A stretch of DNA of 64,000 nt from the human T2T-CHM13v2.0 reference genome, Homo sapiens. The notes beneath the pieces were generated by a model, which saw only the letters and a program-made list of their open reading frames with translations, was not told the origin of the DNA and did no database searches. Numbering within the stretch: the first letter of the stretch is position 1; the number at the start of each line of letters is the position of its first letter. The stretch is taken from assembly GCF_009914755.1 (NCBI RefSeq), contig NC_060943.1. One strand, given 5' to 3'. Shown here in pieces: positions 12,426-64,000 of this stretch. A program made the position numbers and the translations under genes.

Positions 12426-12493
12426 GGGTTAGGCTTCAGAGCAGCGGACGAGGGAGCAGCAGTGGAAATGGGTCAGTGACTTTACATAGGGGC

Positions 12494-12500
12494 TTATATA
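12494..12500 (-). promoter_or_regulatory. TATA box of the proximal IGFL4 promoter
   Basis: Minus-strand TATATAA about 70 nt upstream of the ATG. Confidence 0.7.
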
Positions 12501-15371: not shown

Positions 15372-20535
<5,164 letters not shown>

Positions 20536-22651: not shown

Positions 22652-23107
<456 letters not shown>

Positions 23108-37069: not shown

Positions 37070-37654
37070 ATTTATTTATTGGGTGCTGCTACAGATCCCT
37101 CTGCAGATATTAAGCAAATGTGCTGAAAGCCTTTCCAAGAAAGAATGAGTCAGATTCCAATCCGGGCCTTAGCCCCAGGATATTGTCCACAGAAATGTGG
37201 AGCACAATGATTACGCCTCTTTCTCACTTAGGGGATTTTCTGTAGAATCTGTTTCTCTCCAGTTCTTGCCCTATATTGATATATTTCTCAGGGCTGCTCT
37301 CTAGAGGGTAAAATGTGATGTGTCAGAAGATCCATGGAAGCAGCCAGGAACCAGTTGCTAGGAGTTTGGAAAAAAATCCTGGGAGCAGGCAGAGGGTATG
37401 TGGGTTTGAATGTCAAAACGGCCATGAAGCAAAGTAAGTGAGAACCAAAGAATCCCATCAAAGTAGCCCCTGAGAGACCCTTAAGGCTGAAAGTGGAACT
37501 TAGCTCAGCATGGCCCTCTCAGCCAGGTGATTTTTTCTCTTGATTTCTGGTGAAGCGTGAGCTTGTAAAGCCACAGGGAGCCAGCACCTACCATCTTCTT
37601 GAAAGCCTGATGCCAAAGATCTTTAAACATCTTGACACCATATATCAAGGAATC

Positions 37655-37834
37655 CAGCTGCCAGATAAAATACAAGACTTCTAGTTAAGTTTGAATTTCA
37701 GATGAGCAACAAAGAAATATTTAGTGTAAGTATGTCCCAAGTGTTACCCAAAACATACTAAAATGTTTAAATTATCTGAATGTCAAATTTAAGTGGGCAT
37801 TCTTATGTTTTTATTTGCTAGACTGGCAACCGTA
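37655..37834. mobile_element. MER53 palindromic hAT MITE
   Basis: tgccagataaaataca...tttgctagactggcaacc. Confidence 0.8.
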
Positions 37835-37929
37835 ACTAGGAACACCCAACTCCCAGCATCCATGAAAGCTCTCTCTACTTTCCTGCAGACTCAAAGCCAA
37901 AGAAGTACCAATACTTCTTCAGGGACCAG

Positions 37930-38323
37930 TGTATTAAGCCATTTTTGCATTGCTATAAGGAAATACCCAAGGCTAGGTAATTTACAGAGAAAAGACGCTT
38001 ATTTGGCTCATGCTTCTTCAGGCTATATAGGATGCATGGTGCTGGCATCTGGTTGGCTTCTGGTGAGGCCTCAGTGACCTGTTACTCATGGCAGAATGTG
38101 AAGCAGGAGCAAGCATGTCACATGGCTAGAGTGGGAATGAGACTGAGAGGAAGTGTCACACATTTTTAAATGACCAGATCTTGCAAGAACCCACTATTGT
38201 GAGGACAGCACCAAGCTATGAGGGATCTTCCCCATGACCCAAACACCTCCTGCCAGGCCCCACCTCCAATACTGGTGATTATATTTCAACATGAGATTTG
38301 GAGAGGACATTCAACCTATATCA
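37930..38323 (-). mobile_element. MST-type MaLR solo LTR
   Basis: tgtattaagccattt...caacctatatca; TSD acca(g/t). Confidence 0.85.
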
Positions 38324-41300
38324 ACCATTTAAATTTAAAGTTGAGGAATGAAAACATTTAAGAGCAAGTAAGCATGAATTATGTTCACCCAATCGTACTC
38401 CTAAAACCATCTCAGCTCCTCTCCTTCAGCCAAGGGCATGTCCTCATGTCCAATCTGGTTCTCACTGGAGAGATTTGGGAGTGGGAACTCTGCAATCTTG
38501 CTGTGGTCAATAAAAGAACCTCCCAGAGGCTCACAGGGGCTTCAAGCTTCAATCGTAGTCCCCATTTCAGATCCTCTGACACTCTCCCATCCACTCTCCT
38601 TGTGCCTGCTTCAAAGCCACAGCAAACAGAAGCCAAACCTTTAGTAAGGATGATCCCAATCTCAATTCCAACCCCAGCCCCAGCATATCCACCTTTGCCT
38701 ATACCTAACACTACTATCTGGACATCCGCTTTCAGCCCAGGCCCTCGCTGTTTTCCTCATTGCCTCTGTGGCACCTCAGTCCCAGTTTGCCCTCCACCCA
38801 TCCAGGAAGCTCACTCCCTTCCCTGGATTCTCATCTTGGCTCTTTTATGAGCTTCCTTGCATGCCTTCACCTTCCTGGGTTCCAGAGAGCCCAAGACCAG
38901 CTCCCAGGAATAGTGCCCCTACCCCGATGAGCCTGATCCCAGAAGAATTAGCCCCAAAGTAATGCTGAGCTTTAGCCAGAACAAAAGCTAGCCTAGAAAA
39001 TTCCCCAGGCAGGAAACAGATGACTGCACATAAGTCTCATTGCCGACCCCATTCGTTTCCCACAGGGGCTTGTCTGCATCCTCATCCACGTGTGCTCAGG
39101 CTCAGAGTGAGTTTCAGGTGAGGAAAGAGTGATGAACAAGCAGAATGGAGGAGGAATTTGTGGGGTTGCAGGATGGGGCTCTGACAGGGCCCCAGGTTGG
39201 CAGCCAGGTTTGTTTCTCTCTGGGACCCACATCTGATCTATCCCTCAGGAAAGAGTCAGTCAGCCAGCCCCCAGGTGTGGAAACCAGATCTGTGACATCA
39301 TGGAGAACTGCTCCATGGATAAGCCCATGAGTAAGCCCTAGTGCCATTTACCCAGGTGTGGATTCACCTGCTCCTATGCTCCACTTCCAGCAATGATGAC
39401 AAACATTCTTTGGTCCCTTGGATCAAAAGACTTTGAGTCAAAAGGTTTCAGGTGTGAACTCTGACTGCACCTTCCCCCATAATCAAAGAAGGATCCAGGT
39501 AGGAATCCCTGCCATGCTCCAGGCTGAAGCGGGGAGAGAGCAGCAGAAAAGGAATTTCAATAACTGGGTCCTCCCAAGAGGGGACCCTGCTCTGTTCTCC
39601 ATCTCTCCACCTCTTGTCACAGATGCTCTTCAACCAATTCCGCCACCATGTGTCACCATGTGTCTCTGAACACAAATCTTAAACAATCTCTTTATCTCTC
39701 CAGATGAAGAAAGACCCACCAGGGCAGACAGAGCTGATGTTTCCTTGCAGTGGCTTAGACAGTAATCTGAGGTCCTGGGATACAGGGTACATTAAGATAT
39801 TAAAGACCTCGAGCTCTGAGTGTCGAATCTCATCATGATGGAATCCAACATAAAACAAGACTGAATGCACACATGATGCTTAATTGTGTGCGGAATTGAA
39901 AAAAATAGTTCTCAATTTTTTTGCTTGCAAATTGTGGGATACGTTTACCAGATTTGAACTTTTCCCTTATTTGTCATCCCGCTTTGTTGATTCTGTAACC
40001 AGGGGCTTGGGATTCATTTTGGGGATCCCAAAGCCCTTGTTTGTTGAAGGGTTTCAAAGTCTGGTAGGAGGGTGGTGCACACACAGATAGAATTGTTCAT
40101 CTGTGGGCGGCCTCTGACTCCCTCCCTGGGTAGGCCTCCAGGCCCAATCCTTCCTTCTGAGGAACCGCCGGGAAAGACTTTGATCAAAACAATTAAATGC
40201 ATTGGGAGCTCAGTCTGAGGCAATTATGTGGTTTCATAGAGGAAGAGGTAGAGATGACTCAGGCATTTCTGGCCCCATGTCAGCCTCAGGGCAATCACAT
40301 TCGGGATTTTGCAAAAGACACATTCACTCTGAGCACTGGAGACCTACATCTCTTTGTCCAGTTGACTTAAGTTCTCACCAAGTGAATATCTTCATGCTAA
40401 AGACAGTTTCATTTGTGATTAGGGACAGGAGAGCATGTTTCCCCTCGGTCCTCTGATTCTGACTGGAGGGGCAGTGCTGAGTTCTGGATCGGGGCTGCTG
40501 GCAGTACGTGGGAAAGCTGTCCTATCAGTACTGTATAGAACAGGTGGTCAGAGAAAATGCCTCCCTGGAAAACCTTTTCACATGGTTGAATGTCCCCAGA
40601 CATGAGAGGGAGTGGAGGACTTTGTTCTAGAGCCCACCTCAGAGGCCAGGCACTGCCAATGCCATGAGCAAAATCTTCCACCTCTTTCCCCCAATTTTCT
40701 CTCCATCTGGATTCTGTGTTGCTGAGGTCATTTGCTCTGTCTCTTCCTACCCTCTGTATTCTTCTCTCTCATCTGACTGACTTTTCTCACTCAATTTTCA
40801 AATATCACCTAAAATAATAATACAGATAAGAAACAAATGTATTCTAATGAAAATGTTCAGTCTGAGAAGTAAAGATTACATGGTGAGCATTGATAATTTT
40901 TATCATGCTTCCTACCCTCCCCAAAGGTAACTGCATTTAAGATGTAGTGTTTGTATTTTTCCATAAATTCTGTATAGTTGAATACATATAAGTCTACATA
41001 TATGCCACACTTTTCCCTTCTTATAAATAAGATATCATACATCCCCCCCTTGAAGCCCTAAAAGCCCACAGATCACAGATAATTCTCATGGCTGCCTAGA
41101 TTTCTATTTTATGGATAAATTGTAATTTATTTCATTTGTCTTCTTTTTGAAAATTATGTAGGTTGTTTGCAATATTTCAGCCTTACCCTAAAAATTCTGC
41201 AACAAATATTCTTGTATGTACATATTTGGGCACTTTAATTAGAGTGTTTAGTCAACAGCAATAGATGTGAAAATTCTGAAGCAAATTGTGTAAGATGCTC

Positions 41301-41619
41301 TGAGCCATATGCATAGGGAAAAATCTAAACAATAGATTAGACTAAAGCAATAAACATGAATGAACAGGTTCAGGGTTTCAGTTTTAAGAATTGAAACATA
41401 TTTTGAATGGCAGCCAGTAAAATGCACTGACTCCAAACACTTCAAACAAGACATTCCTGTTATCAGGAAGGTTAGGAGGGTAACGCTTGTTTTGTTCACT
41501 AAGCTGGGTGGACTCATGATTACTGAAGCAATACTCATTTCTGCTTTAGTCTCCTATGTTTGCATCCCATGAAGCTCAAATAAGAATTGAAGCAAATCTC
41601 TAAGATTTTTTTTTTTTTT

Positions 41620-41966
41620 GCCTTATCTCCTAAAACTTGAGGAATGCATGTGTTCTTAGTGATTCACATCCACGGGACAAAAACTCAAGGAGAAATAAGA
41701 GCTGACGTCATGCAAGTCTTGGCTGCTTTTGTTACTATACATTTTCTCTGAGAGTCCAACAGACTTCGGGCTGGAACTTGGCACTGGAGACTCATGTTCG
41801 GAATCATAGGGGAACATCTGGCTGTTAATCACTTGCACAATTTAGAACATTTCCTTTACATTGGCTTTAAATTCTAGCCCTTATTTCATTTTGTAGTCTT
41901 ATTTTCTTTCTTCTGCATGCTCACAATACCAAGCATTAAATGTATTTTAATAACTAAAAAAAAAAA
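41620..41966 (+). pseudogene. Candidate retrocopied mRNA 3'UTR fragment (parent gene not identified)
   Basis: Non-repeat sequence ending ATTAAA, about 15 nt, then A11; no counterpart seen in the right arm. Confidence 0.45.
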
Positions 41967-43186
41967 GGAATTTTATTTCTGGTGGTGTTACTAATGGTTG
42001 TGTGATTGTGCAGAGTCCAGAAAGCTGCTGACTTAACTACCCATCACCCAGCTCAAAACGCCCAATCCCCTCTTAGGTGAAAAGTGATGACCATACAGAT
42101 ATTTAAAGGAGAAGCACCCTCACTTACAACATCAGAGGGTCAAATCTACAGGCTCATCAGCTGTCCTACATTTTGTCAAAATAAAGCTCCTCTCAAACAT
42201 GGAGGCACATCGGCAGTTCATGGAGCCAGAAGTACCTACTTCACCCTCTCTCTTACATGGGTGGGCCTGAAATACTCCTTATCAGGGCATCTGGACTCTA
42301 TTTTGGGTGTGTGCAAAGTGTTTTGAAGGGTTTTTCTTGGTCGATGTTTTGTATTTGGGGGAAAAATTAATCATCCTCAAATTGAATCGCCTAATCACCA
42401 GGTGACCCCAGGTGATGGCATGGCACCATACTCTCCAGAGGTCTGCGATATTTGCCCAGTGGAGTACAGCTCCCAACAAGCCTGCGGTCCTCCATTCATG
42501 ATGCTCTCTAGAATCCCAAGATGGCGTTTGTTTGCCTGCATGGGATTCACCTTCCATGACTCTCAGGAATCAGGAACTCAAAAGACATGATCCTGTTTTT
42601 TTTTTTTTCTTTTTTTCTCTGCCTATGTGTATCAGCTCAGCCAACCTCCTCAATGTGCTTTCCCTCACGCCAGCGGCACACCAGCAAGTCAGCAAAGTTC
42701 AGGGGCTCAGTATGCACTGAATGAGGACACAAGTCTTATTTGCCTCTCCCTTGACTATGTTGGGGGTAAGGAGAAGACACAGCCTCTCTGCAAGCACAAT
42801 ACTCTTCCCTGAAAGGCCACCCTCTTTCTGGTTTCCAGTACTCCTCTTATATCACTAGTATCACTAGTTGGTTCTGCTTCTCTCCCATCCAGGGATCTGG
42901 AGAAGTTTCATATCAAATAAACATAAACACACGAATAAATGGGTGTGGTCCTGGAACCAAATAAATAATCTTCATTGAAGTGGGGATGGGGAGGTGTAAG
43001 ACAAAGACAGTAGTGACTTGCATTAGACAGGAGGTAGTGTGAAACCAGGACTCCTGAAACTGTAAGCCTGGTCTGCTGATCATGGACACCAGCAGAATGA
43101 ATTCATAAGTTCAAGTGGTGGAATAATATTTTTACAGAGGTAAAAGAAAATAACAGCCAACAAAGACCTTTCTAAAATAGCCTTCA

Positions 43187-43609
<423 letters not shown>

Positions 43610-43959
43610 TCAGGTGGTGAACGAAGACAGGATAAAATATCAATCTCTGAAAGTAAAGTCACAGAGTGAACACCTGGATATTTGGACTCTGCCTGGGGAC
43701 AGTTTCCCAACGGAAGTGCAAGTAGCAAGGATCTGAGTATAGCACAGCAGTTCCGCAGAACTAAGGTTCTGGATGGCTTGATGGAACTGGAATCCCTTAG
43801 GTGTGGCATCAGTGAAGAAGTGCGAGCCCCCCAAATCCACGTGGGGTCCACCAAAGTTCCTGGATGAAGACTGGTCTGCACATGCACATTCTAGACCACC
43901 CAAAGCTTAGCAGAGAGGTAAGTCTTAAGAAGTATTTGTCTCATTTATACCCATGGGAT

Positions 43960-44330
43960 TTTAATCAATGGAGGTAATGACAGGGAGATGCCAATGCCAT
44001 TGAAATATGTTTAATGTCACTCACAGTTTCTGTAGAAATTAGAGGCACAGAATGTGAAGCAGGGGCATGTGGGGAAGCCCCAGGTGTGATCAGGAGACAG
44101 AGGCAGGAGTGAGCAAAAACCTAGGCCAGAGCCCTTATGATGTGTTCTGTGGGAAAGGCAGAACAGGGCAGGAGATGCAGCTCACAACTGGTCAGTTTGA
44201 ATAATATTGGCAGGGTGTGAAATATAGTGGCAGCCTCTAGTTGTCTGGTACCTGGCCCTGGGTTGACTTAGGGCAGAGAAAATGTTGGCTTGGTGTGTAA
44301 GAGAGATAAAGGAGATGGTTCAGAGCGGGG
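43960..44330. mobile_element. ERVL-type LTR fragment (family uncertain)
   Basis: LTR-like motifs such as ctagttgtctggtacctggccctggg. Confidence 0.45.
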
Positions 44331-44454
44331 GCTCTGGATCTCGGGGGAGATGCAGATACCTTTGGCCATGAGTTAAACCCCGTAGTTAATGGATACCAAA
44401 TAGAGAAATACAGACTCAAGAAAACACAAAGCACTATCCCAGTTGGGAGAGCAC

Positions 44455-44705
44455 AAAGGAGACATTATCAAAAGTAATGTGGGATTCTGGATTGGATCCT
44501 GGAGCAGGAAGTGGACAGGAGGGGACTACCAACAAAACTAAAATAAAGCCTGTAGATTCAACATTCATTTCCTACTTTCAATAATTGTATTAGGATCATT
44601 TAAGATGTTAACATTAGACGAAGTTGGGTGAAAGATCAAAACTCTGTACTGGCTTTACAACATTCTTGTAAATCTAAAATTATTTCAAAATGGCAGGTTA
44701 AAAAG
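44455..44705 (+). mobile_element. L1M 3' end fragment
   Basis: ctggattggatcctggagcag...gtaaatctaaaattatttcaaaa. Confidence 0.7.
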
Positions 44706-45459
44706 TATTTTAAATGATACCTACAAAATACTATCATGATAGTGATAGTGAACACTCACTAAAGATATGATCAGGATGCCCTAATAGGCCTCCTTATTCT
44801 TGTAATTGCAATTAGAGTTCCTTCTTTCCTTAATATTATGTAACTGGAGCTCCCTTGAGCTATTTCTAGCCTGGGGTATAATGTCTGACTCATACACATG
44901 TAGTTTCATAGGAAGCCTTGGGGCCCTAGCAGAATAACACTATCACCCACAAGATAACCAGCCAGGTGCTGCACCAGGTCTAGGCCCTCTGTGTGATGGA
45001 TGCGGTCCCGTAACCAAAGGGAGACAAAGTTACCACACCCTATGTGGCCCAGAAAAATGGCCAGAGACTGAACTGGCACAGTCTCTGCTAACACAAGAGT
45101 AACAGCACTCTTCCACCCAGTCCATGCTGCCTGGAACTTCCCTGACAGAGAATCATTCTGGGATCATTCTCGAGAACTTGGCAAATATCTCAACACTCTG
45201 ACATCACATTCTCTTCTACAGTCAGGATCCTCAATCCTGGATTATAGACTCACAATCTCAACTTCTTTTCTGGACACTGGAAGTCTTTAAAGATAGAATG
45301 GTCAGAATGACTGAAAGTATTTTTTTGTAATGAGAAGCCAAATTATTGTAACACATAAAATGATTTTGCTGAAAAACTTGATTGATGGCACATAATTACA
45401 AGGCATATTCTTTCCTTTCTTAGTAGCTTAAAAAATCAACATTTCTTTCCTTCTCTAAT

Positions 45460-46522
45460 ACATTACTTGGGAATGTCTCAGTGGGGAAGGCTCATTTCTC
45501 CTTCGCACAGTGTTAGCTACGATGGCCTGACTGAGCCTGGAGGATTTGCTTCCAGAATGGCTCATTTATGTGCTTGAGAAACTGGTGCTGGGTGTCATTT
45601 GGGAGCTCAGTTCAGGGAATTGGCTAGGGGGGTCTTAGTTCCTCTTCATATTAGTGCCTCCACAGGGCTACTTGGGCTTCCTCCCAAGAAATCTGTATTA
45701 GTCAGGGTTGTCTAGAGGGACAGAACGAGCAGGAGATATATATATACATATATATATATACACACACACATATATATATCTTATTATTGTGGGACCTTGT
45801 GATCGTGTGAGTTAACACTACTTAATAAACTCCCATATATGTATATGTATACTTATTATAATTAATGTATGTATATCTACATATGTATATATGTGTATGT
45901 ATATATACACATATGGGAGTTTATTAAATAGTATTAACTCACAGGATCACAAGGTCCCACAATAGGCTGTTTGCAAGCTGAGGAGCAAGGAAGCCAGTCC
46001 GAGTCCCAAAGCTGAAGAACTTGGAGTCTGATATTTGAGAACTTGGAGTCCGATGTTTGAGGGCAGGAAGCATCCAGCATGAGGGAAAGATGTAGGCTGG
46101 GAGGCTGAGACAGTCTAGTCTTTTCACATTTTTCTGTCTGCTTTCTATTCTAGCCAAGCTGGCAGCTGATTAGATGGTGCCCACCCAGATTAACATCGGG
46201 TCTGCCTTTCCCAACCCACTGACCCAAATGTTAATCTTCTTTGGCAATACCTTCACAGGCACACCTAGCATCAATACTTTGCATCCTTCAATCCAATCGA
46301 GTTGACAGTCAGTATTAACCATTACAGAAGCCAAGCTCCGCATGCAAGTATTCCAAGAAGCTGATGAAAATCATGTCCCTGACATGGAAATCAAGACACT
46401 TTCACCACATTCTACTGGTCAAGGAAGTCACAAGGTAAGCCCAGATTGAAGAGGAAGGGATTCAATTCCACCTTTCAATGGGAAGAACAGAAAGAATTTG
46501 TGGCTATCTTAAACCTACCACT
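45460..46522 (-). mobile_element. MLT1-type LTR with nested MLT2A LTR (45694-46326)
   Basis: tgtattagtcagggttgtctagagggacagaac...attaaccattaca nested in MLT1 sequence. Confidence 0.8.
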
Positions 46523-46539
46523 TAGAGTTTTCAATAGTT

Positions 46540-47980
46540 TAATTTATTTTTAGAACAGCATTAGATTTACAGAAAAATTAAGAAGCTAGTATAAAAAGCT
46601 TCCAAATACCTTGAAACCAGCTTCCCCTATTTTTAGCTTCTTACATTAGTATTTTATTATAATTAATGAAAGGATATTTATACCCCGTTAGTAACTAAAG
46701 TCCATAGTTTATCTAGGTTTTCTTCATTTTCACCAGATGTTCTCTTTCTGTTCCAGAATCCTATTCAGGACACATTGCATTTAGTTGTCCTGTCTCTTTA
46801 GCCTCCTCTTGACTGTGACAGTTTCTCAGATTTTTCCTTGTTTTTGATGACCTTCACAGTTATGAGCAGTACTGGTAAGGAACTTGCTTATTTTCTGGCA
46901 CAAGATGCTTCAGATCCTTACCAGGGTCTGAAGGGCACTGGTAAGGTTGTAGAATATCCCTACTGGAATTTGTGTGATTTTTCCCTCTAATGATTAGACT
47001 GACATTATTGGTTTTGGGGAGCAAGATAACAGAGGTAAAGTACCATTTCTATCACATCCTATCAAGGAGATACTGTCAACATGATTTATCATTGATGATT
47101 ATGACACCGATTACCTGGCTGATGTGGTATTTTTCTCCAGCGTAAAGTTACTCTTTTTCTCCCCTTTCCACATTGAACTCTTTGGAGCCAGGTCATTATT
47201 TGCAGCCTGCATTTTAAAAAGTGAGGAGTTGGGCTTTCCTTCCTTGATGGTGCTGTATTTATATATATTACTTCGAATTCTTCTGTATTAGAGATTTGTC
47301 TCTTCTCCCCACTTATTTATTCAATCATTTATTTATACCAGTAGGAACTCATGAGTATTTATTTTAAACTTTGGGTTTATCTTAGTCCATTCCTGCTGCT
47401 ATAACAAAATACCTTAGACTGGGTAATTTATAAACAACAAAAATTTATCTCTCACAGTTTCCGGAAGTTTGAAAGTCCAAACTTTCAAACACCTGCAGAG
47501 TCAGTGTTTGGTGAGGGCTGCTCTCTGCTTCAAAGATGACATCTTTCACTGTATCTTCACATGGCAGAAAGGGGAAACAAGAACAGACTTCCTCCAGCAC
47601 TTTTATATGGGCACTAATCCCACTCATGAGGGAGGAGCCTTCGTGACCTAATCATCTCCTATAAACCTACCTCTTAACACTGTTGCATTGAGGATTAAGT
47701 TTCAACGTGAATCTTGGAGGGACACAAAAATTCAGACCACAGTAGGGTCATAACCCAATACCACCGAATTCATTTCTTGCTCAAATTGTTCCAGCTTTGG
47801 CCACTGGGAGCTCTTCTGTTGGCCCTTGTGCCCCTTTGACATATTGTGATCAATGTGGGGTTATATCATTATTGTAATTGTTATTTTCAGCACTTCCTTA
47901 TTTTCTGGCACAAGATGTTCCAGATTCATCGTGTATATTTTCTGTTCCAGATCTAGAATGTGCCATTTCTCCAAGGACTG
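46540..47980 (-). mobile_element. L1MC 3' end with nested MLT1A-type LTR (about 47379-47743)
   Basis: ttagatttacagaaaaatt..., tatcttagtccattcctgctgctataacaaaatacc. Confidence 0.75.
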
Positions 47981-48094
47981 TGCAGTCCTTTTTTACACTT
48001 CTTTCCTTTTAAATTTATTCCGTGGTTCTAGTTCTTCCTTGATCCTAAAAGTTTAGGTCAAATTGTATACATTTTCCCGGTTAGTTTTATTTAG

Positions 48095-48185
48095 TAAATA
48101 TAAATATATTATTTAGTTTTATTATAAATACATTATTTATAATAAATATAAATACATTATTTATAATAAATATAAATAATAAATA
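48095..48185. repeat. AT-rich tandem repeat (ataaatacattatttataataaat x2 plus degenerate copies)
   Basis: Seen directly. Confidence 0.8.
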
Positions 48186-48559
48186 TCCTGGTGTTGTCAA
48201 CTTAAAATGCCCAGAAATATGTAAAAGTGAAAACAAAACTCTTGATTTAAAGATACGTTTCACTCTATCTTTCCTGGCTGCCCGGCACTTCTACCTATGC
48301 GTCTTCCCTGTTCACTGACCTAGCTTCTGTTCTTTTGGTGCTGGAAGCACAAAGAGGGTGTGAGATTCCTAACGTTATTGTGATTATCCATGGGCTTTTC
48401 AAATATGTAAAGCGGATTACCTCAAAGGCCCCCTTTGGCTTCTTTAGAGACACAAATGCTGAGGATCTCTCACCTGAGCATCCCTCGATGAGGGCTGTTG
48501 CGTCTTGATTTCATCTGGGTAGTTACAGGCATCATCCACCACGAAGTTTCCAACCCAGA

Positions 48560-49330
48560 GTCAGGATGCAGCTGAGCTTGACGGGCGTGGTGCAGACGTC
48601 GGTGCAGCGAAAGCTGAGGAGCCGTGGGCGTTCACCCGGGTGCCGGTGTTTCTAAATCGCGGGCTGCGACCTGCATACTCAGGTGCCAGCTGGGAGCAGA
48701 GGCGGATTTGCGAGGCCAAAACCTGGGTGTGACTTGGAATCTCAGTCGCGCTATGGGGGTGCACGCTGGCTCAAATCCCCGTGGAAGATGCACCTGTGAC
48801 CTGCCCAGGCTGCAAAACCAGGTGCGCTGCCATGGGCACGACTCACTGGGCTCCATTTTCACCACAGGGAACTTGGACCGCCTGACATTGAAAAAGACTG
48901 AGGTAGCTCGGGGGCAGCCAAAAGAAACCAGAGGCGGGGATCCTAGTATCATTCAGGAAGTGGACCCAGCCGCAAACTCAGGAGCGTTCCAAGTGTCCAG
49001 AGCGTCTGGTAGTCGCAATAGCCAGTGATCAGTGACACCCCCAAGAAAGTGATAGCGACAGAAACATGGCGACTACTTACACTGCCGCCCCCGTGCGCCC
49101 CTGCGCGAGCTCTGCTGGAGGCGCCCGCGGGAGCGCCTGCGGGAGCGCTCCACTGCGGAATCCGCCGCTCTCTTCTCTGAGCAGTCTCCTACTGCCATCT
49201 AGGGAGGAATACGGGGATACCGGCTGGAGTACCCTCTCTATCTTCTTGCCTGCAGGGGTCGCAGGATAGATGTTTCGAGAGCCTATAAAAGTCATACAGT
49301 GCTATGGTGGGTGCACGCTAAACGTGCCTT
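48560..49330 (-). promoter_or_regulatory. CpG-island promoter module (left arm) with CTCF motif 49190-49205, splice donor GTAAGT 49075-49080, YY1 motif 49063-49073
   Basis: CpG-rich; minus strand reads CCCTAGATGGCAGTA ... CAGT|GTAAGT AGTCGCCATGTT. Confidence 0.7.
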
Positions 49331-49364
49331 TGACACTGTGATTAAATCACATAACCCATATAAA

Positions 49365-49975
49365 AAGTAATTGGAAAAGACAACCCCCAGAATGGAGAGA
49401 ATGTTTAAAAATCGTATTTCTGATAAGAGATTAATATCCAGAATATATAAATAACTCCTGAACTCAACAACGGGAACAAATAACTCATTTAAGAGACAAG
49501 AGAAGGATTTGAATAGACATTTCTCTAAATAAAATACATAAATGGCCAATAATTACATGAAAAGATGCGCAACATCATTGATCATTAGGGAAATGCAAAT
49601 CAAAATAACATGGAGATAGTACTTCACTCCAACTAGCATGGCTATTAACAAAAAAACAGAAATTAACAGGTGTGGGTAAAGATGCGGAGAAATTAACAGG
49701 TGTTGTGCATTGCTGGTGGTAATGTAAAATGGTTCAGCTGCTGTGGAAAACAATGGGAGTTTCTCAAAAAGGTAAATATAGAATTAATTAATATACGACC
49801 CAGCAATCCCAATAGTAGGTATGTACTCCACACAATTGAAATAGGGACGCAAAAAGATATTTGACATCAATGTTCATATCAGCATTATTTATAGTAGCCG
49901 AAAGATGGAAATAACCCAAGGGTCCATCGACAGATGAATGGATAAACAAAATGAGGTATTTTGATACAATGGAGC
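49365..49975 (+). mobile_element. L1MB-type ORF2 3' fragment forming the palindrome spacer
   Basis: ORF2 C-terminal motifs (cattagggaaatgcaaatcaaa; cagatgaatggataaacaaaatg). Confidence 0.8.
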
Positions 49976-50139
49976 TGGCTACTAACCACCTGCTCCTGTA
50001 TTACCTAAAGGCCTTCACTCCCTAACCCATTGGTCTTTTTTGTCCATTATTTTTTGTAGGGGTTATAACAGCATTCAAGTGTGGAGTCAAGGCTCACTTT
50101 AAAATGCATCAAACATAGCTATGTATCAATTCACCACAG

Positions 50140-51030
50140 TCCGTCAAAAGGCCTGTGACGCACTCTCTCTGGGGGTATTTGAGCCGATATCCCAGTAGTC
50201 AACACTAGATGGCAGTAGGAGACTGCTCAGAAAATGGAGAGCGGCGCCCACCTTGCAGTGCGCAGGCGTCGTCAGTAGACATCGCGCAGGCGTCGTCAGT
50301 AGACATCGCGCAGGCGTCGTCAGTAGACATCGCGCAGGCGTCGTCAGTAGACATCGCGCAGGCGTCGTCAGTAGACATCGCGCAGGCGTCGTCAGTAGAC
50401 ATCGCGCAGGCGTCGTCAGTAGACATCGCGCAGGCGTCGTCAGTAGACATCGCGCAGGCGTCGTCAGTAGACATCGCGCAGGCGTCGTCAGTAGACATCG
50501 CGCAGGCGTCGTCAGTAGACATCGCGCAGGCGTCGTCAGTAGACATCGCGCAGGCGATGGGTGAGGCGGCTTTGGCCGCCATGTTTTCGTCGCAGTAACT
50601 GCCTTGGTGTCAGTAGTCATTGCCAGTTTCGGGCGTTCTGGACAATTGGGATGCTGCAGAGTTCATGGCTGGGGCTGCTCGTTGGGTGGGACAAGAATCC
50701 TCTGCAATGGTTTGTTTTGGCTGCCCAGGAGGTGCGTCAAGTCGCTGCCGCTCCCCTCGTGGGCGTCAGGCCTCAAGAGTTCCCCGCCTAGAAAATGGAG
50801 CTCAGCGAGTCGTGCGTACCATGGTGCACCTGGTTTTGCAGCCTAAGCGGGTCACTTTAGTGCATCCTCCTCGCGGATTGGAGCCTGTTTGCACCCCTAT
50901 AGCCCGAATGAGACCCAAGTCACACGGGCTCAGAAGTTCTTTGCCCCTGGCCATGATCCCCCAGCCAGCCACCCGAGTTTCCAGGCCTCAGGCGCTTTGG
51001 AAACGCCTGTACGTCGCCTGTACCTGAATG
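50140..51030 (+). promoter_or_regulatory. CpG-island promoter module (right arm) with CTCF motif 50202-50217, splice donor after 50560, YY1 motif 50575-50585
   Basis: CpG-rich; ACACTAGATGGCAGTA, ATGG|GTGAGG, GCCGCCATGTT. Confidence 0.75.
50260..50556 (+). repeat. Perfect 24-bp tandem repeat (VNTR), 12 full copies + 9 nt, unit GCGCAGGCGTCGTCAGTAGACATC
   Basis: Counted directly: 50260-50547 = 288 nt = 12 identical units. Confidence 0.98.
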
Positions 51031-51659
51031 GCAGGTACTCATCTGCTTTAGCTACATCATAGTCTGCACCACTTCTGCCAGCTCGATTGCAGCCTGGATT
51101 TGAGTCAGAAACTTTTCATGGTGGATGAGGGTTGTAAATATCCAAAGCGACTCCAGATGAAATTGCCCTCATCAAAGGAAGCTCAGATGACAGATTTCTG
51201 CATAGAAGCCAAAAAAGCCTTCCCTCAAGGAAAGAGTCAGTTTCAAGTATTTGCAAACTCAGAACAGTGTCAATTTTAGATCACTACAATGCTGCCCATC
51301 AAGGAAGAACCCTATTGCTCCCTGGCGTCTCTCCTTGAGCCCTAAACACAGTAGATTCAGAAACTAAGTCAGCAAATGGAGGAAGATTCTTAACCGTGAT
51401 AAGTTGGAAAACGTGCGTCAGAGGGCCACATCCCTTCCTCGAGTTCAGGCTACCACCTGACTGCAGGTCAGAGCTGGAAGAGACAGTGAAAATGTAAGTT
51501 TAAATAAAGATTGTCGTTTTCACTTTTACATACTTAAAGCCATTTTAAATGAGTCACGGGCAGATATTTATTAAATAAAATGACCAAAAAATTAATGGGA
51601 TTTGACCTAACTTTTATCCTGGGGCAGGGGAAGAACTAGCACTGCAGAATACATTTAAG

Positions 51660-51812
51660 CTGCGAGCCGTGGCTCCTGCCTGTAATTCCAGCACTTTGGG
51701 AGGCCAAGATGGGAGAATCACTTGAGGCCAGGAGTTTGAGACCATTCTCATCAACATAGCGAGTCAACTTAGGGAGATCCCATCTCTATTTATTTTTTAA
51801 AATAAAAAAAAG
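51660..51812 (+). mobile_element. Alu left monomer/FLAM
   Basis: gtggctcctgcctgtaattccagcactttgggagg; absent from the left arm. Confidence 0.8.
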
Positions 51813-52664
51813 AATAAATTTAAAAGGAAAGAGGTGTGAAAACGACAGCTACTTAGTAATTAAATTCTGTGAGTCATGGCTTGTTCATGGGAATGATTCT
51901 ATTTGAATGTTATAATAATTTTGTTTCTAATTTCAGAAAGTATTTTGGTCCTTCTGACCAAGTCTTTGTATCTGTGTAAATCATGAGTTAAAGAAATAAC
52001 TTTCCAAAAAGAGGTTGAGATCTTCTGATTCAGGACTTAAGCATTGTGAGTGTCAAGGGGGTGTGGTGTCAGTGTTGAGATGTGTGGCCCTGTCCCTGTT
52101 GGTGGTCTTGGTTTCAGACTTCTGTCAGGAAAGAGTCAGACAGTGTTGACTAGGAAAAGGAGTTCTGTGGTGTCTGTGGTTTGGTCTGTGGTAATTTTGC
52201 TGAGCCAGAAAGGGAATTCCAGCCTTGATGTCCAGGGCTGACTCTCCGGGCAGGCTGCCCATTGGTGAGTGGGAGCAGTGCCTGCTGTGCTTTCAGGACT
52301 GTGTCCATCACTTCCTGTCCAGGTGGACACTGTAGCGCAGGCTTCCCATTGATGGACGGGAACCTGATCTCCCTGTGCTTTTACTGCCATGCTCATCACG
52401 CACTGGGGATCATCAGCCCACCTTTTAAACCCAGCCCACAATTGGCCAGTTATCTTGTGGGTGATAGTGCAACTGTCTGTGTCGCCAGGCTTCCCACACA
52501 ACTATCTGCATCTGGTTTGGACTGGCTAAACCAGGCCACACCAAAGGTCAGGGGAGCCTTAGATACATAACGCTTATTTCAGGTGTGAGGGAGCATGTGA
52601 AGGCACCCTGATTGCATCTTTAGGAAGTGTTCATTATCGTGATTGCGTTTTTATATGTAACATT

Positions 52665-52965
52665 TAAAATATTGTCTAACTTATTACTTTAAAATAATTT
52701 TAGACTTACAAAGAAGTTGCAAAAACAGTATGGTGAATTTGTCTTTTTCACTCAGCTTCCTCTAATGTTGCATAGCCTTAATAAAATTATTGAAACCAGA
52801 AAACTAATACTGACATAATACTATTAACTGATCTGCAGACCTTATTTGAGTTTCATCAGTTGTCCCACTCGTGTCCGCTTTCTGGTCTAGGATGCAATCC
52901 AGAATTCAGTGTTGCAATTCGTTATTGTGTTTCCTTACTCTCCTCTATTCTAGGATAGTTCTTCC
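52665..52965 (-). mobile_element. L1M 3' end fragment
   Basis: aataattttagacttacaaagaagttgcaaaa. Confidence 0.65.
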
Positions 52966-54035
52966 TTAAGCCTTACCTGTCTGATAAGCCTTGTCTTATC
53001 AGACAGATAGTCTTGTCTGTGTATATGCAGCCTAGCCCTCAGCCAGGAATTTGGGGAAGACTCCACAAGGACATGTGGTGCTTACCTCTGCACAGTTCTT
53101 CTTTGATACCATACCTCAGAGACTCCAGGCTCACCAGCTGCCCTGAATGCCCTCAGTGCTGCAGAACTGCTGTCCTGTGCTCAGATCCCAGCTATCTGCA
53201 TTGCACTTGGGAAATTGTTCTTTGACAACTTGTTTATCTAAGGGCTCACCCTGTAAATGTCCATCCCTTGTGGAATTGCAGTCTTGTGCTACCTGTTGTC
53301 TGGTACCTAAACACAGTGGCTTCATATACTTTATTCTGTGTGCAGTTTTATAGTTGTTAATGTCAAGAGAGCTAGTCTAGTTTCAGTTAACACCATCATG
53401 GCTAGAAATGGGAGAATCCTCACTTTCATTTTGAAGGCTATTTTAGCAGAGTATACACTTCTACATTGGCTGTTTCATTCTTTCACTCTTTAATGAGGAA
53501 ATTCCTTGTTAGTACTATTCATGTCCTTGGTTAGCAGGCCAGTCATGCTTTCAGGAGTCTAGTTTTCACACCATCTTCTCTTCAGTTCAAATTACTGTTA
53601 CTTTCCTTTTCTGTTTCCCCATACCTGGGTCCATGAAGATGTATTTACTATTACTAGTATCATTATTAAGACAGTTAAACTCTCCTGGGTTCCTAGGTGG
53701 GAGAGAAGTTTAACTGTCTACAAGTATAAGGGGAGAACTGGAAGGCAAAAGAGGGTAGCCTTTTGGGGCAAGGTGTTTCTCTTTAGAGAGACTGTAATTC
53801 TCTTGATCCCCACAGGGTGGAGGTAAACTTGGCTGGTTTCCTAGTTCAGTGCATACTAAACCTCTGAACTTGCTTGTGTGCCACTGAAGAGAGGGAAGAC
53901 ACATTGAGGAGAAATGCGGAGCTGATACAGACAGGCATATTGTACACAACCAAGATAAGTGGGATCAAGCCGCCCTGTAAGAGAGAGGGTAGAAGCAGGG
54001 ACTTCTGGCTCCCTGAACTGTTAACTGTGTCTCCA

Positions 54036-54135
54036 TTTTTTTTTTTTTTTGAAGACACTCCACTCTGTCACGCAGCTGGAGCGCAGTGGTGCAGTCATGG
54101 CTCACTGCAGCCTTGATCTTCTGGGCTGAAGTCGT
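54036..54135 (-). mobile_element. Alu fragment
   Basis: Poly-T + gctggagcgcagtggtgcagtcatggctcactgcagcc. Confidence 0.75.
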
Positions 54136-55876
54136 GTCTTCATTTTTGATAGGAACGTTATTTTGACAAAATGTGGGACAGCTGATGAGCCTATAGATGT
54201 AACTCTCTGATGTAGTCAGTTAGTCATATGGGTAGCTCTCCTTGACAAACTGCATAGGAATCTCTTTTGTCCTCTTAGTAGGTGGTAATTTTCCCCTGGG
54301 TGTGGGATGGCTAAGAAGGACTTGCACAATTACATAACCATGGGTGACATCTCCAGAAAGAAAACCTCCGATAAACATGACATTTTCTCTTTTGGGGCAT
54401 TTGGATTCAGTGCATTTTATTGGCAACTGTCCTATGTGTTTAAATTCCTAGAACTGAAACCCTGGACGCACGGTAGCTCATAATTCTTGTTACATAAGAT
54501 AATTTGTTTATTGTTTTAGTTTTCAATTAGTTTTTCCTTAACATATAACTGAGTGCATCATAAACAATTTGCTTTAGAATTTCTACTTCCAGGGCTGTTA
54601 CTGACTGGATGCAGTGCACAAAGACATACGTATAAGACTATTTTTTTGTGATATTTTAGAGCAATGGTGAAAAGTTGGGAACAACTTAAATCGTTTTCAA
54701 CAGAAGACTAATGAAATAAATTACTGAAACTTATTCACAAAATGGAAATCTAGGCAGCTGTAAGAAATGGATATGTGCTCTTAGGGATTTAAAGGGGTGT
54801 GTATAACATTATCCCATAAAGACTAAAGTGTGGTACGTGTGTACATTTATATTAATATGTATGCAAATGTGTAGAATATAGAAAAATTCAGACACTATGT
54901 TGTAAACACAGTTACTTTGGGGAGGAGAGGAGGTGCGATGAGAGAATACCAACCATGGCTGTATAATCTCTATTTCTGAACATACACAACATTTTTCAAG
55001 AAAATATATTACTTTATTATTTGAATTATTATTTTCAGCCATATGTATAGACTGAAAGGAGAGAGAGACAAGGAGACAGAAAGAGACAGTGACAGAGAGG
55101 ACAGAAGAGTCACAAAGAGTGGGAGGAGAGAAAGGGAAGGACCTTAGCCACAGAAAGTTGAGAGGAGAGTAAGTTGGAAGAGGTAGTGATTAGAGATTTT
55201 GCACATTGACAGTGGTTGACTTGGCTTCTGGGGTAGGCCCTGGAACAAAGTCCTCTGATCCTCGGTTGTTTGGGAATAGTCAATTATGTAAGGGTATTCT
55301 GGTGCTACCAGTTTTGTGCAATGGTGGGCATTTACTGCTATAAACTTCCCTCTTAGACCTGCTTTTGCTTTTTCCTACAGATTTTGGTATGTTGTGTTTC
55401 CATTTTGTTTGTCTCAAGAAATTTTTAAATTTCCCTTTTAATTTCTTCACTGACCCAATGATTGGTCAGGAACATGTTGTTTAATTCCCATGTCTTTGTA
55501 CTGTTTCTGAAGTTCCTCCTGTTACGGATTTCTAGTATTATACCATTGAGTTAGAAAAGATACTTGATATGATTTCAGTCTTCTTAAATTTGTTAAGACT
55601 TGTTTTGTGGCATACATATGATATATCCTGGAGAATGCTCATGTGCAGTTGAGAAGAATGTGTATTCTGCAGCTGTTGGATGAACTGTTTTGTATAAATC
55701 TATTAAGTTCATTTGGTCTAGAGTATAGTTTGAATCTGATGTTTCTTTATTGATTTTGTTTTGTCTGGTTGATCTGTCCATTGCTGAAAGTGGGGTGTTG
55801 AAGTCCCCTACTATTACTGCATTGCTCTCTCTCTTTACTATTACTGCATCTGTCTCTCTCTTCAGATATATTAATA

Positions 55877-56720
55877 TGTTAGGCCATTCCTACATTGCCA
55901 TAAAGAAATAGCTGAGACTGGATAATTTATATAAAAAAAGAGCTTTCATTGACTCACAATTATGCAAGCTGTACAGGAAGCATGGTGCCAACATCTGCTT
56001 CTGAGGAGGCCTCAGGAAGCTTACAATCATGGCAGAAGGCACAGTGGGAGCAGAAGCTAGAGAGAGAGTGTGTGTGGGAGGTGTCACACACTTTTAAAAA
56101 ACCAGATCTTACAAGAACTTATCACCAAGGGATGGCACTAAGCCATTCATGAGGGATATGTCCCCATGATACAAGCACTTCCCACTGGTGCCCCCTCCAA
56201 CACTGGGTATTACATTTCAACATGAGATTTGGTGGGAATACAAAGATCCAGACCATATCATTCCACCCCTGTCTCCACATCTCGTGTCCTTTTCACGTTG
56301 CAAAATACAACCATGCCTTCCCAACAGTCCTGAAAAGTCTTTACTCATTCCGGCATCAACTCAGTCAAAAGTCTCAAGTCTCATCTGGACATGAATTCCT
56401 TCCACCTATGAGCCCGTAAAATCAAAACAAGTTATTTACTGCCAACATACCATGGGAGTACAGCTATTGGGTCGCTCTCCAAAAGGGAGAAGTTGACCAA
56501 AAGAAAGGGGCTACAGGCCCCAATGCAAGTTTGAAACCCAGCAGGGCAGTCATTAAAACTTAAAGCTCCTGCAGTGAGCCGAGATTGCGCCACTGCACTC
56601 CAGCCTGGGCAACAGAGTGAGACTCCAGCTCAAAAAAAAAGGAAAACAAAAAACACCAAAAGAAAACAAAACAAAACAAAAAAACTTAAAGCTCCAAAAT
56701 AGTCTCTCTTGACTCCAGAC
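55877..56720 (-). mobile_element. MST LTR (to 56260) plus partial internal sequence
   Basis: LTR terminus ccagaccatatca followed by MaLR internal sequence. Confidence 0.8.
56570..56680 (+). mobile_element. Severely 5'-truncated Alu with perfect 15-bp TSD
   Basis: TSD aaaacttaaagctcc at 56555-56569 and 56681-56695. Confidence 0.9.
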
Positions 56721-57729: not shown

Positions 57730-58030
57730 TTTTTTTTCTTGTTTTTTGGAGATGGAGTCTCGCTCTGTCTCCCAGGTTGGAGTGCAGTGGTATTCCACTG
57801 TCCACTCCAATCTCCTTCTCCTGTGTTCAAGAAATTCTTGTATGTCAGCCTCCTGAGTACCTGGAATTACAGGTGCGCACCACCATGCCTGGCTAATTTT
57901 TGTATTTTTAGTAGAGACAGGGTTCCACCATGTTGGCCAGGCTCATCTCAAGCTCCTGACCTCAAGTGATCTGCCTACTTCGGCCTCCCAAAGTGCTGGG
58001 ATTACAGGCATTCGCCACCACACCTGACCT
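57730..58030 (-). mobile_element. Alu
   Basis: TSD tcataaattcctttttt. Confidence 0.93.
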
Positions 58031-60385: not shown

Positions 60386-60399
60386 AGATCTTAAAAGTT

Positions 60400-63564: not shown

Positions 63565-64000
<436 letters not shown>

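What the first reader, a model, noticed from the sequence alone, without database searches (positions are those of the whole stretch)
40550..55300. Ancient ~15-kb inverted duplication centred on a head-to-head promoter pair
Seen: non-repeat blocks on either side of an L1 spacer (49365-49975) are collinear reverse complements. Examples are 49176-49202/50205-50231, 49030-49075/50575-50615, 48720-48860/50790-50930, 48180-48280/51470-51570, 44940-44970/52440-52470, 43700-43930/52965-53215, 42125-42185/54155-54215, 41250-41460/54380-54620 and 40560-40670/55210-55300. The arms are clearly diverged and carry arm-specific MLT, L1MC and Alu insertions, so the event is old. Inference: a whole transcription unit with its promoter was duplicated head-to-head. 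The left unit points toward IGFL4 (minus strand) and the right unit toward the rest of the IGFL cluster, which may explain how the cluster arose.
Basis: partly seen in the sequence, partly recalled or inferred. Interest (0 to 1): 0.8.

Follow-up and report, generated by a model that had tools for sequence, protein, structure and literature searches.

The report
Old mirror-image duplication of IGFL promoters
A roughly 5-kb stretch holding a CpG-rich promoter and a long non-coding first exon was copied in mirror image long ago, so the far-upstream start sites of IGFL4 and IGFL2 are diverged twins lying back to back; this is real but an ordinary kind of genome rearrangement.

Summary
Window 40563-49385 (left arm) and 55304-50032 (right arm) are collinear reverse complements. 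There are 15 blastn blocks and 9 nhmmer blocks, which cover about 92% of the right arm. Whole-genome searches with the two largest blocks found only the query and the opposite arm, so the arms are a two-copy, locus-specific duplication and not interspersed repeats. Divergence between the arms is K2P 0.28 (local alignment) to 0.46 (global alignment), which suggests roughly 60-120 million years.

The copied unit was about 5 kb. It held a CpG island, a YY1-like motif just downstream of the start site, a non-coding first exon and about 4 kb of intron. It was not a whole transcription unit: no homology from this event extends beyond the outer ends of the arms. Both copies are still CpG-rich (observed/expected 0.63-0.72, against 0.22 for the window). 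The spacer is almost entirely one old, 3'-truncated, high-copy fragment that looks like L1.

A second, younger inverted duplication (K2P about 0.22) copied the IGFL4 unit (11.6-44.9 kb) to 120.4-106.3 kb. That copy supplies exon 1 of IGFL2. The cluster therefore grew by repeated inverted duplications, but a link between the oldest event and the origin of the genes is not shown. This is a new member of a known kind, of modest interest.

The parts
40563..49385 (-). Left arm (8.8 kb; about 4.6 kb alignable to the right arm). It holds the IGFL4 far-upstream first exon, its CpG island and the start of the following intron.
   Evidence: genome-wide uniqueness
50032..55304 (+). Right arm (5.3 kb; about 92% aligns to the left arm). 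It holds the first exon of the long IGFL2 transcript models and its CpG island.
   Evidence: its only long match in the genome is the left arm
49388..49973 (+). Spacer: an old high-copy interspersed repeat fragment. It reads like the C-terminal part of L1 ORF2 (my recall only). It is 3'-truncated compared with 4 of 4 other copies examined.
   Evidence: 8875 first-look candidates, 40 scored, best 72-77% identity; the other copies continue about 320-360 bp further; searches found nothing
49974..50031 (.). 58 bp between the repeat fragment and the right arm that match neither.
   Evidence: score 7; 290 of 500 shuffles score as high
48480..49240 (-). Left CpG island (GC 0.594, CpG observed/expected 0.72, 48 CpGs), covering TSS 49083 and exon 1 (48474-49083).
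   Evidence: annotation (5 BestRefSeq NR transcripts and 1 Gnomon mRNA start here)
50170..51050 (+). Right CpG island (GC 0.591, observed/expected 1.03; without the tandem repeat, 50557-51050: GC 0.577, observed/expected 0.63). It covers the model TSS at 50490. Exon 1 runs to 51493.
   Evidence: annotation (Gnomon models only)
49063..49073 (+). YY1-like motif, 10-20 nt downstream of the left TSS. It is one of only 2 matches in the 64-kb window.
   Evidence: 2 matches, 0.14 expected, 0 of 100 shuffles reach 2; the motif itself is recalled
50575..50585 (-). Mirror-image YY1-like motif at the paralogous position in the right arm.
49176..49202 (.). Longest perfectly conserved run between the arms (27 nt). 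Its partner is at 50205-50231. The right copy overlaps a CTCF-like core at 50202-50214 (1 mismatch).
   Evidence: (run lengths)
50260..50556 (+). Right-arm-specific perfect tandem repeat, 24 bp x 12.4 copies, lying in exon 1 of the long models. The model TSS at 50490 lies inside it.
41467..41965 (+). Left-arm-specific insertion. It is 92% identical to the 3' end region of CLUAP1 on chr16 and ends in a poly(A) run, so it is probably a processed retrocopy fragment.
43197..43507 (.). Left-arm-specific Alu-type insertion.
   Evidence: RefSeq mask; matches to other Alu-type copies
45438..48007 (.). Left-arm-specific 2.6-kb block, facing only 157 bp in the right arm. It contains a high-copy repeat at 45689-46337 and another repeat at 46653-47370.
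51650..51834 (+). Right-arm-specific Alu-type fragment.
54036..54132 (.). Right-arm-specific high-copy fragment of about 95 bp.
44314..44859 (.). Segment present in both arms (right copy 52602-52963) and also in a third copy at window 106309-106869 (81% identical to the left copy). It contains a short old interspersed repeat at about 44450-44720.

Best explanation
An ancient, locus-specific inverted duplication (a decayed palindrome) of a roughly 5-kb unit. The unit held a CpG-island promoter with a YY1-like element just downstream of the start site, a long non-coding first exon, and about 4 kb of the following intron.

The two copies lie back to back. The 646 bp between them is one 3'-truncated, L1-like repeat fragment plus 58 unassigned bases. 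Each copy acts as a far-upstream alternative promoter. The left one transcribes leftward and its exon is spliced over 36 kb into the IGFL4 exons. The right one transcribes rightward and is spliced over 70 kb or more into IGFL2 exons.

Shown: the mirror-image homology; that it occurs only twice in the genome; the paralogy of the CpG islands, the motif and the first exons; the arm-specific insertions; the divergence.

Inferred: that both islands are still active promoters unmethylated in the germ line (from retained CpG density and from the annotation); the age of about 60-120 million years; and the way it formed. I favour a fold-back or template-switch copy, or a palindrome whose centre broke and was repaired with the repeat fragment as filler.

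Since then there has been no gene conversion between the arms, which have drifted apart evenly. The IGFL cluster later grew by further inverted and direct duplications. One of these re-copied the IGFL4 unit together with part of the left arm.
For: Homology and collinearity.

Not chance and not repeats: 44 of 51 control tiles empty; 2 of 2 genome-wide candidates are the query and the other arm.

Homology reaches the edges of the spacer element: (global score -1 against shuffles -35.1 +/- 6.3; 0 of 500 reach it; same-strand control -26).

Paired CpG islands: (observed/expected 0.72 and 0.63, against 0.22 for the window and 0.27 and 0.46 for the whole left and right arms).

Paired motif: (the only 2 matches in 64 kb, at mirrored positions).

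First-exon paralogy. The left splice donor at 48474 is intact, the paralogous site in the right arm has lost its GT, and the right exon runs on to a donor at 51493.

Non-coding: the paralogous reading frames differ by frameshifting indels; 0 of 7 ORFs have a Pfam match; no Rfam family in 38000-58000.

Even divergence: the six local blocks longer than 200 nt have K2P 0.28-0.32, including the promoter/exon block at 0.315.

Annotation: 5 curated NR transcripts and 1 model use the left exon; only Gnomon models use the right exon.
Against: Promoter activity rests on annotation and CpG content alone, and the right-hand start sites are predicted models only. No expression, CAGE, methylation or ChIP data were available.

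The exon and promoter part is no better conserved than the intron part, so there is no sign of sequence constraint beyond CpG retention and the two short motifs. Only 7 CpGs sit at the same aligned columns, out of 35 in the left copy and 28 in the right.

The age is bracketed only loosely (K2P 0.28 local to 0.46 global) and depends on substitution rates that I recall rather than measured.

The mode of formation is not resolved. The missing 3' part of the spacer element was not found beside either outer end, and the right arm does not start with an inverted copy of the element.
Confidence: 0.8

Rival explanations
1. The arms are two copies of one long interspersed element (an L1 or an endogenous retrovirus) that happened to insert nearby in opposite orientations. 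That would also give collinear reverse-complement blocks.
For: Short pieces inside the arms are interspersed repeats: 44450-44720 with 52672-52965, Alu-type fragments, and the spacer. The RefSeq mask covers only 24% of the 264-kb cluster, so being unmasked does not prove uniqueness.
Against: Genome-wide searches with the two largest blocks returned 2 of 2 candidates as the query and the other arm. The right arm's only long hit is the left arm. No Pfam domain was found in 7 of 7 ORFs. About 92% of the right arm aligns to the left arm, including a CpG island and annotated exons.
Confidence: 0.02
2. The 15-kb feature is only the visible core of one very large palindrome (about 110 kb). That palindrome would have duplicated the whole IGFL4 transcription unit, gene included, giving the IGFL4-like copy at 117-120 kb.
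For: IGFL4 plus its upstream region (11664-15355) matches 120398-117399 on the minus strand, in the order and orientation that such a palindrome would predict. Divergence of the main coding exon between IGFL4 and IGFL2/IGFL3 (K2P 0.31-0.34) is close to that of the arms.
Against: The IGFL4-like unit has its own copy of arm segment 44314-44859, at 106309-106869. That copy is closer to the left arm (K2P 0.16) than the right arm is (0.28), so this unit is a later copy of the left side and not the continuation of the right arm. Its overall K2P to the left side is 0.22, against 0.46 for the arms by the same method. The apparent linking blocks are high-copy repeats. nhmmer finds nothing but transposons outside the arms.
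Confidence: 0.1
3. The similarity is kept up by selection on a functional bidirectional regulatory module or domain boundary (paired CTCF-like and YY1-like sites). The rest of an originally larger duplication would have eroded beyond recognition.
For: The innermost block is the best conserved (84%, with a 27-nt perfect run). A CTCF-like core lies in it at 50202-50214. The YY1-like motifs are paired. CpG density is retained in both islands.
Against: Divergence is even along the arms, with the intron part as similar as the promoter part. A 27-nt perfect run is about what is expected by chance: roughly 0.7 such runs in 3000 positions at 77% identity, by my arithmetic. The left paralogue of the CTCF-like core has 2 mismatches and was not reported. 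The outer right boundary is sharp and abuts a masked repeat at 55323.
Confidence: 0.08

Closest known systems
Large inverted repeats (palindromes) of the human genome, such as those on X and Y that carry testis-expressed gene pairs (Warburton et al. 2004 and Skaletsky et al. 2003; both recalled, not read here)
   Same: Two kilobase-scale arms in reverse-complement orientation around a short spacer, with a paralogous transcription start in each arm pointing outward.
   Different: Those palindromes stay above 95-99% identical through arm-to-arm gene conversion. Here the arms are 66-77% identical, with even divergence and several arm-specific insertions, so conversion stopped long ago or never acted. 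This one is autosomal, and only a promoter plus first exon was copied, not a whole gene.
Bidirectional (head-to-head) promoters, defined as TSSs on opposite strands less than 1 kb apart, usually within one CpG island (Trinklein et al. 2004; recalled)
   Same: The annotated TSSs at 49083 (minus strand) and 49965 (plus strand) are 882 bp apart and flanked by CpG-rich sequence.
   Different: There are two separate, paralogous CpG islands, split by an AT-rich repeat fragment, rather than one shared island. The other annotated right-hand TSS (50490) is 1407 bp away. The arrangement arose by duplication of one promoter, not by two unrelated genes sharing one.
Fold-back or template-switch inverted duplications (FoSTeS/MMBIR type), and centre-break repair of palindromes (recalled from the literature)
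   Same: An inverted copy lies directly beside its template with a spacer of a few hundred bp. The junctions carry tens of unassigned bases and a truncated repeat fragment.
   Different: This is an ancient, fixed event rather than a pathogenic or somatic one. The junction microhomology that defines the mechanism can no longer be read at this level of divergence.
The other duplications inside the IGFL cluster (found here)
   Same: Inverted orientation recurs: 11.6-44.9 kb against 120.4-106.3 kb (K2P 0.22), and 111.7-129 kb against 224.8-213.5 kb (85-95% identity).
   Different: Those are younger and include IGFL gene sequence.

Membership tests
Inverted duplication / palindrome | Two arms that are reverse complements of each other and collinear | tested here: met
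   15 blastn blocks and 9 nhmmer blocks, all on the minus strand and monotonic
Inverted duplication / palindrome | Arms are locus-specific rather than copies of a dispersed family | tested here: met
   2 of 2 genome-wide candidates are the query and the other arm; 44 of 51 control tiles are empty.
Inverted duplication / palindrome | Short spacer relative to arm length | tested here: met
   The spacer is 646 bp (49386-50031) against arms of 5.3 and 8.8 kb
Gene-converting palindrome (X/Y type) | Arm-to-arm identity above about 95-99%, maintained by gene conversion | tested here: not met
   76.7% identity over 3008 locally aligned positions; 66.3% over 4367 globally aligned positions
Segmental duplication in the standard sense (at least 1 kb at 90% identity or more; definition recalled) | At least 90% identity | tested here: not met
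Bidirectional promoter | Opposite-strand TSSs less than 1 kb apart | tested here: inconclusive
   49083 to 49965 is 882 bp, but 49083 to 50490 is 1407 bp. The right-hand TSSs come from Gnomon models only.
Bidirectional promoter | One shared CpG island or regulatory region between the two TSSs | tested here: not met
   Two islands separated by about 800 bp (49300-50099) with GC 0.28-0.42 in all 200-bp windows
Bidirectional promoter | Transcription initiation in both directions, shown experimentally | not testable with these tools
Pair of transposon copies / foldback element | Many copies in the genome; transposon proteins or terminal features | tested here: not met
   two copies only; 0 of 7 ORFs with a Pfam match. 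The flanking direct pair 37926-38322 / 55871-56259 is an unrelated high-copy repeat.
L1 (for the spacer fragment) | Similarity to L1 ORF2 or the L1 3' end | tested here: inconclusive
   High-copy status is shown. Pfam and PDB searches of two open pieces found nothing. The L1 reading is my recall only.

The most novel reading that the evidence does not exclude
The decayed palindrome was the seed of the IGFL cluster. A single promoter-plus-exon module was mirrored at about the time of the first IGFL gene split. Both CpG islands have been kept as working germ-line-unmethylated promoters ever since. The site, with its outward-facing CTCF-like cores and YY1-like elements, now acts as the boundary that separates IGFL4 regulation from IGFL2/IGFL3 regulation. 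The 3'-truncated L1-like fragment at the exact centre would be the filler captured when the fold-back or the palindrome centre was repaired, and so would time-stamp the event. The same fold-back tendency would then have produced the later inverted duplications, including the one that gave IGFL2 its present first coding exon.
Probability: 0.15. Interest if true: 0.5.

Novelty: new member of a known kind. Interest (0 to 1): 0.33.

Why it matters
It shows that the far-upstream non-coding first exons of IGFL4 and IGFL2 are paralogues created by one mirror-image copying event. It also shows that the human IGFL cluster was assembled by repeated inverted duplications; mouse has a single Igfl gene (passages of PMC3099712). 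This gives a concrete framework for dating the expansion in other mammals. It also helps explain the odd gene models here, with very long 5' extensions and an IGFL2 first exon borrowed from an IGFL4-like pseudogene. It offers a natural case for asking whether duplicated CpG-island promoters keep their activity over tens of millions of years. It does not reveal a new kind of element or mechanism.

Tried and rejected
1. Outward extension of the palindrome. Masked blastn of the whole left side against the whole right side suggested a monotonic chain through 21966-23643 and 16055-17206 out to IGFL4. Genome searches showed that both segments are high-copy repeats (82-88% identical to many loci), so I dropped them. 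nhmmer found no non-repeat homology outside the arms.

2. Flanking direct repeats (37926-38322 and 55871-56259) as a sign of a mobile unit. Rejected: this is a high-copy repeat of about 390 bp (7978 first-look candidates, 40 scored).

3. The right arm as an insertion into the spacer element. The element's missing 3' part was not found at 55200-56400 or at 39500-40700.

4. An inverted copy of the element's start inside the right arm. Not significant.

5. Coding potential and RNA families in the arms. None found.

6. Naming the spacer by Pfam or PDB. No hits.

7. CTCF-like cores. One site with 1 mismatch lies in the right arm, and the window has 6 matches against 1.77 expected. This is too weak to build on.

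8. My own error. One search used L007:6250-7550 (window 110250-111550) instead of L007:2250-3550. As a result, the 20 loci fetched and scripts concern an unrelated repeat family and gave nothing usable. I redid the step. The relative-rate test I had planned with many copies was replaced by the three-way comparison of the left arm, the right arm and the third copy.

9. Literature. Searches found no paper describing this inverted duplication or a shared IGFL4/IGFL2 promoter. One search was too loose to be informative. I read only passages of PMC3099712 (IGFL expansion relative to mouse; IGFL1 and IGFL3 bind IGFLR1, while IGFL2 and IGFL4 do not). I also read passages of PMC12913969 and PMC6117267 (lncRNA TRMP and IGFL4); they give no genomic position, so I could not tell whether TRMP maps here and dropped the lead. 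Their supplements were closed and might state the locus. In PMC5142424 the one passage names a solo LTR between IGFL4 and PGLYRP1, outside the feature. The original IGFL family paper (Emtage et al. 2006) was not looked up; I only recall it.

Full report
Observation. A blastn comparison of window 38001-49670 with 49671-64000 gave 20 alignments. Thirteen form a single collinear minus-strand chain; the other 7 are Alu-type or same-strand repeat matches. With a shorter word the chain has 15 blocks, running from 40568-41437 / 55299-54400 (934 nt, E 5e-60) to 49163-49234 / 50246-50173 (84% identity). nhmmer joins these into 9 blocks and sets the arms at 40563-49385 (left) and 55304-50032 (right). 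About 92% of the right arm aligns to the left arm.

More than chance, and not repeats. I compared the repeat-masked left arm with 51 tiles of 5127 bp across 264 kb of the IGFL cluster. It aligned only to itself, to the right arm (3253 nt, minus strand) and to three isolated single segments; 44 of 51 tiles gave nothing. Whole-genome searches with the two largest blocks (40560-41440 and 48200-49240) each produced just two first-look candidates, the query and the opposite arm. In searches with the whole right arm or its outer half, the only long hit was the left arm; every other hit was a short high-copy fragment.

Anatomy. The left arm is 8.8 kb because it has about 4.2 kb with no counterpart in the right arm:
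- a poly(A)-tailed fragment, 92% identical to the 3' end region of CLUAP1 (41467-41965);
- an Alu-type element (43197-43507);
- about 300 bp at 42287-42587;
- about 500 bp at 43934-44428, at least partly a deletion in the right arm;
- a 2.6-kb block at 45438-48007 that holds at least two repeats.

The right arm has two short Alu-type fragments (51650-51834 and 54036-54132) and a perfect 24-bp x 12.4 tandem repeat (50260-50556). The copied unit was therefore about 5 kb, not 15 kb; 15 kb is the present span of the whole feature.

Homology between the arms continues to the edges of the central repeat. 49235-49387 against the reverse complement of 50030-50172 scores -1, where 500 shuffles give -35.1 +/- 6.3 and none reach it. 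The spacer is thus 49388-49973, an old high-copy repeat (8875 first-look candidates, 40 scored, best 72-77% identity), plus 58 unassigned bases. In 4 of 4 other copies examined, that repeat family continues about 320-360 bp further on its 3' side, so the window copy is 3'-truncated. By my recall its reading frame resembles the C-terminal part of L1 ORF2, but Pfam and PDB searches of two open pieces found nothing.

What was duplicated. The inner 0.8 kb of each arm is CpG-island-like. The left island (48480-49240) has GC 0.594 and CpG observed/expected 0.72. The right island (50557-51050) has GC 0.577 and observed/expected 0.63, or 1.03 with the tandem repeat included. The window as a whole is at 0.22. 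RefSeq places the first exon of five curated non-coding IGFL4 transcripts and one model at 48474-49083 on the minus strand. It places the first exon of the long IGFL2 models (all Gnomon) at 49965 or 50490-51493 on the plus strand.

A base-level alignment shows that these first exons are paralogous over about 600 nt. The left splice donor at 48474 is a good consensus site, while the paralogous site in the right arm has lost its GT, and the right exon runs on to a donor at 51493. A YY1-like motif occurs exactly twice in the 64-kb window, at mirrored positions: 49063-49073, which is 10-20 nt downstream of the left start site, and 50575-50585 (0.14 expected; 0 of 100 shuffles reach 2).

The paralogous open frames differ by frameshifting indels. 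None of 7 ORFs has a Pfam match and no Rfam family is present in 38000-58000, so the unit is non-coding.

Age. Over 3008 locally aligned positions the arms are 76.7% identical (K2P 0.282). Over 4367 positions of global alignments within the nhmmer blocks they are 66.3% identical (K2P 0.460). The first figure is biased low and the second high. Divergence is even along the arms: the six local blocks longer than 200 nt range from 0.28 to 0.32, and the promoter/exon block is at 0.315. This fits one event followed by neutral drift without gene conversion. With recalled mammalian rates of about 1.2-2.2e-9 substitutions per site per year, the event is roughly 60-120 million years old. That is comparable to the human-lineage divergence since the primate-rodent split. 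Retention of CpG in both islands over that time is indirect evidence that both have stayed unmethylated in the germ line. However, only 7 CpGs are at identical aligned columns, out of 35 (left) and 28 (right).

Does it extend to the genes? No homology attributable to this event lies outside 40563 / 55304. Two tempting outward blocks are high-copy repeats, and the direct pair flanking the feature is also a high-copy repeat.

IGFL4 and its upstream region (11664-15355) do match 120398-117399 in inverted, collinear fashion, and further collinear pieces are 28030-28370 / 107271-106892 and 44314-44859 / 106869-106309. I did not test 28030-28370 on its own for genome-wide uniqueness. A genome search with 44300-44870 found only one full-length match, this third copy. 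The other 38 non-self hits are partial and reflect a short old repeat inside the segment.

For this segment the distances are: left arm to third copy 0.16, left arm to right arm 0.28, right arm to third copy 0.31. The 106-120 kb unit is therefore a later inverted copy of the left side (overall K2P 0.22 over 3119 positions) and not the far end of the right arm.

The cluster also contains still younger duplications, for example 111.7-129 kb against 224.8-213.5 kb (inverted, 85-95% identity) and 175-187 kb against 192-207 kb (direct, 82-93% identity). Divergence of the main IGFL coding exon between IGFL4 and IGFL2/IGFL3 (0.31-0.34) is similar to that of the arms. The oldest inverted event could therefore be coeval with the first gene split, but nothing links them physically.

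How it probably works and arose. My best reading is this. One CpG-island promoter module was mirrored beside itself, either by a fold-back or template-switch copy, or as a palindrome whose centre was later broken and repaired. Each copy now serves as a distal alternative promoter whose non-coding exon is spliced across tens of kilobases into IGFL4 or IGFL2. The truncated repeat at the exact centre, and the tens of unassigned bases at the junctions, fit a repair-type junction. The data do not discriminate between a pre-existing element and a captured filler. A CTCF-like core at 50202-50214 lies in the best-conserved innermost block. Its left paralogue has two mismatches by my reading of the sequence, and a 27-nt perfect run is not unexpected at this identity. 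A boundary function is therefore only a possibility.

Known or new. Five literature searches (too loose to be informative) found no description of this duplication. From passages of PMC3099712, the human IGFL family is expanded relative to the single mouse gene. The feature is too diverged for standard segmental-duplication catalogues (90% threshold, recalled), though a self-alignment track would presumably show it. It is a new example of a known kind, a decayed inverted duplication that produced divergent paralogous promoters, and is of modest interest.

Limits. I had no other mammalian genomes, no repeat library, and no expression, methylation or ChIP data. The family names of repeats, the substitution rates and the motif definitions are recalled.

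Noticed in passing
window 119202-120398 (beyond the window; L008:5202-6398) versus window 11664-12894: A degenerate IGFL4-like gene copy lies on the plus strand. Its exon 1 is the annotated first coding exon of the 'select' IGFL2 transcript, so IGFL2 and IGFL4 share their first five residues (MVPRI). Its decayed homologue of the main IGFL4 coding exon carries several deletions and supplies the alternative IGFL2 5' exon at 120213-120425. IGFL2 therefore looks like a chimera of an IGFL4-like promoter and exon 1 with exons lying 11 kb downstream.
   Followed up: partly
window 11664-44859 versus 120398-106309 (L007-L008): A second, younger inverted duplication of the IGFL4 unit (K2P about 0.22 over 3119 aligned positions). 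In the copy, the pieces matching left 28030-28370 and 44314-44859 are adjacent, so about 16 kb of the left side is missing from it.
   Followed up: partly
cluster, window coordinates 111.7-129 kb versus 224.8-213.5 kb; 141-145 kb versus 211-207 kb; 175-187 kb versus 192-207 kb (L007-L020): Large, younger duplications within the IGFL cluster: two inverted and one direct, at 80-95% identity. They include a third IGFL4-like copy at 220846-221827.
   Followed up: no
window 50260-50556: A perfect 24-bp tandem repeat of 12.4 copies (100% matches) inside the right CpG island and the first exon of the long IGFL2 models; one annotated start site (50490) lies within it. The paralogous place in the left arm has a degenerate 12-bp repeat of 4.1 copies (49100-49148). 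It is likely to vary in length between people.
   Followed up: partly
window 41467-41965: A left-arm-specific fragment, 92% identical to chr16:3563593-3564087 inside the 3' end of CLUAP1. It ends in a poly(A) run preceded by a polyadenylation-like signal, so it is probably a 5'-truncated processed retrocopy.
   Followed up: partly
window 55323-55457 and 49388-49973: Both ends of the right arm lie within tens of bases of repeat fragments. The spacer fragment is broken off on its 3' side at that junction. By my recall, the outer fragment is also L1-like, lies on the opposite strand and is likewise cut on its 3' side, but only the RefSeq mask supports its repeat status. This may be chance, or a trace of how the copy was joined in.
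   Followed up: partly
window 50202-50214 (and the left paralogue near 49190-49203): A CTCF-like core motif (1 mismatch) inside the best-conserved innermost block. The mirrored left copy has 2 mismatches. The two face outward.
   Followed up: partly
window 37070-55323: The RefSeq soft-mask lists only five short repeats in these 18 kb, and masks 24% of the 264-kb cluster overall. Several unmasked stretches elsewhere (16000-17600 and 21900-23700) are in fact high-copy repeats, so this mask cannot be used on its own to call sequence unique.
   Followed up: yes
window 105875-106705 (L007): The third copy of arm segment 44314-44859 (at 106309-106869) overlaps a RefSeq 'H3K27ac hESC enhancer' feature, which adjoins two NANOG-marked hESC enhancer features (104211-105874).
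   Followed up: no
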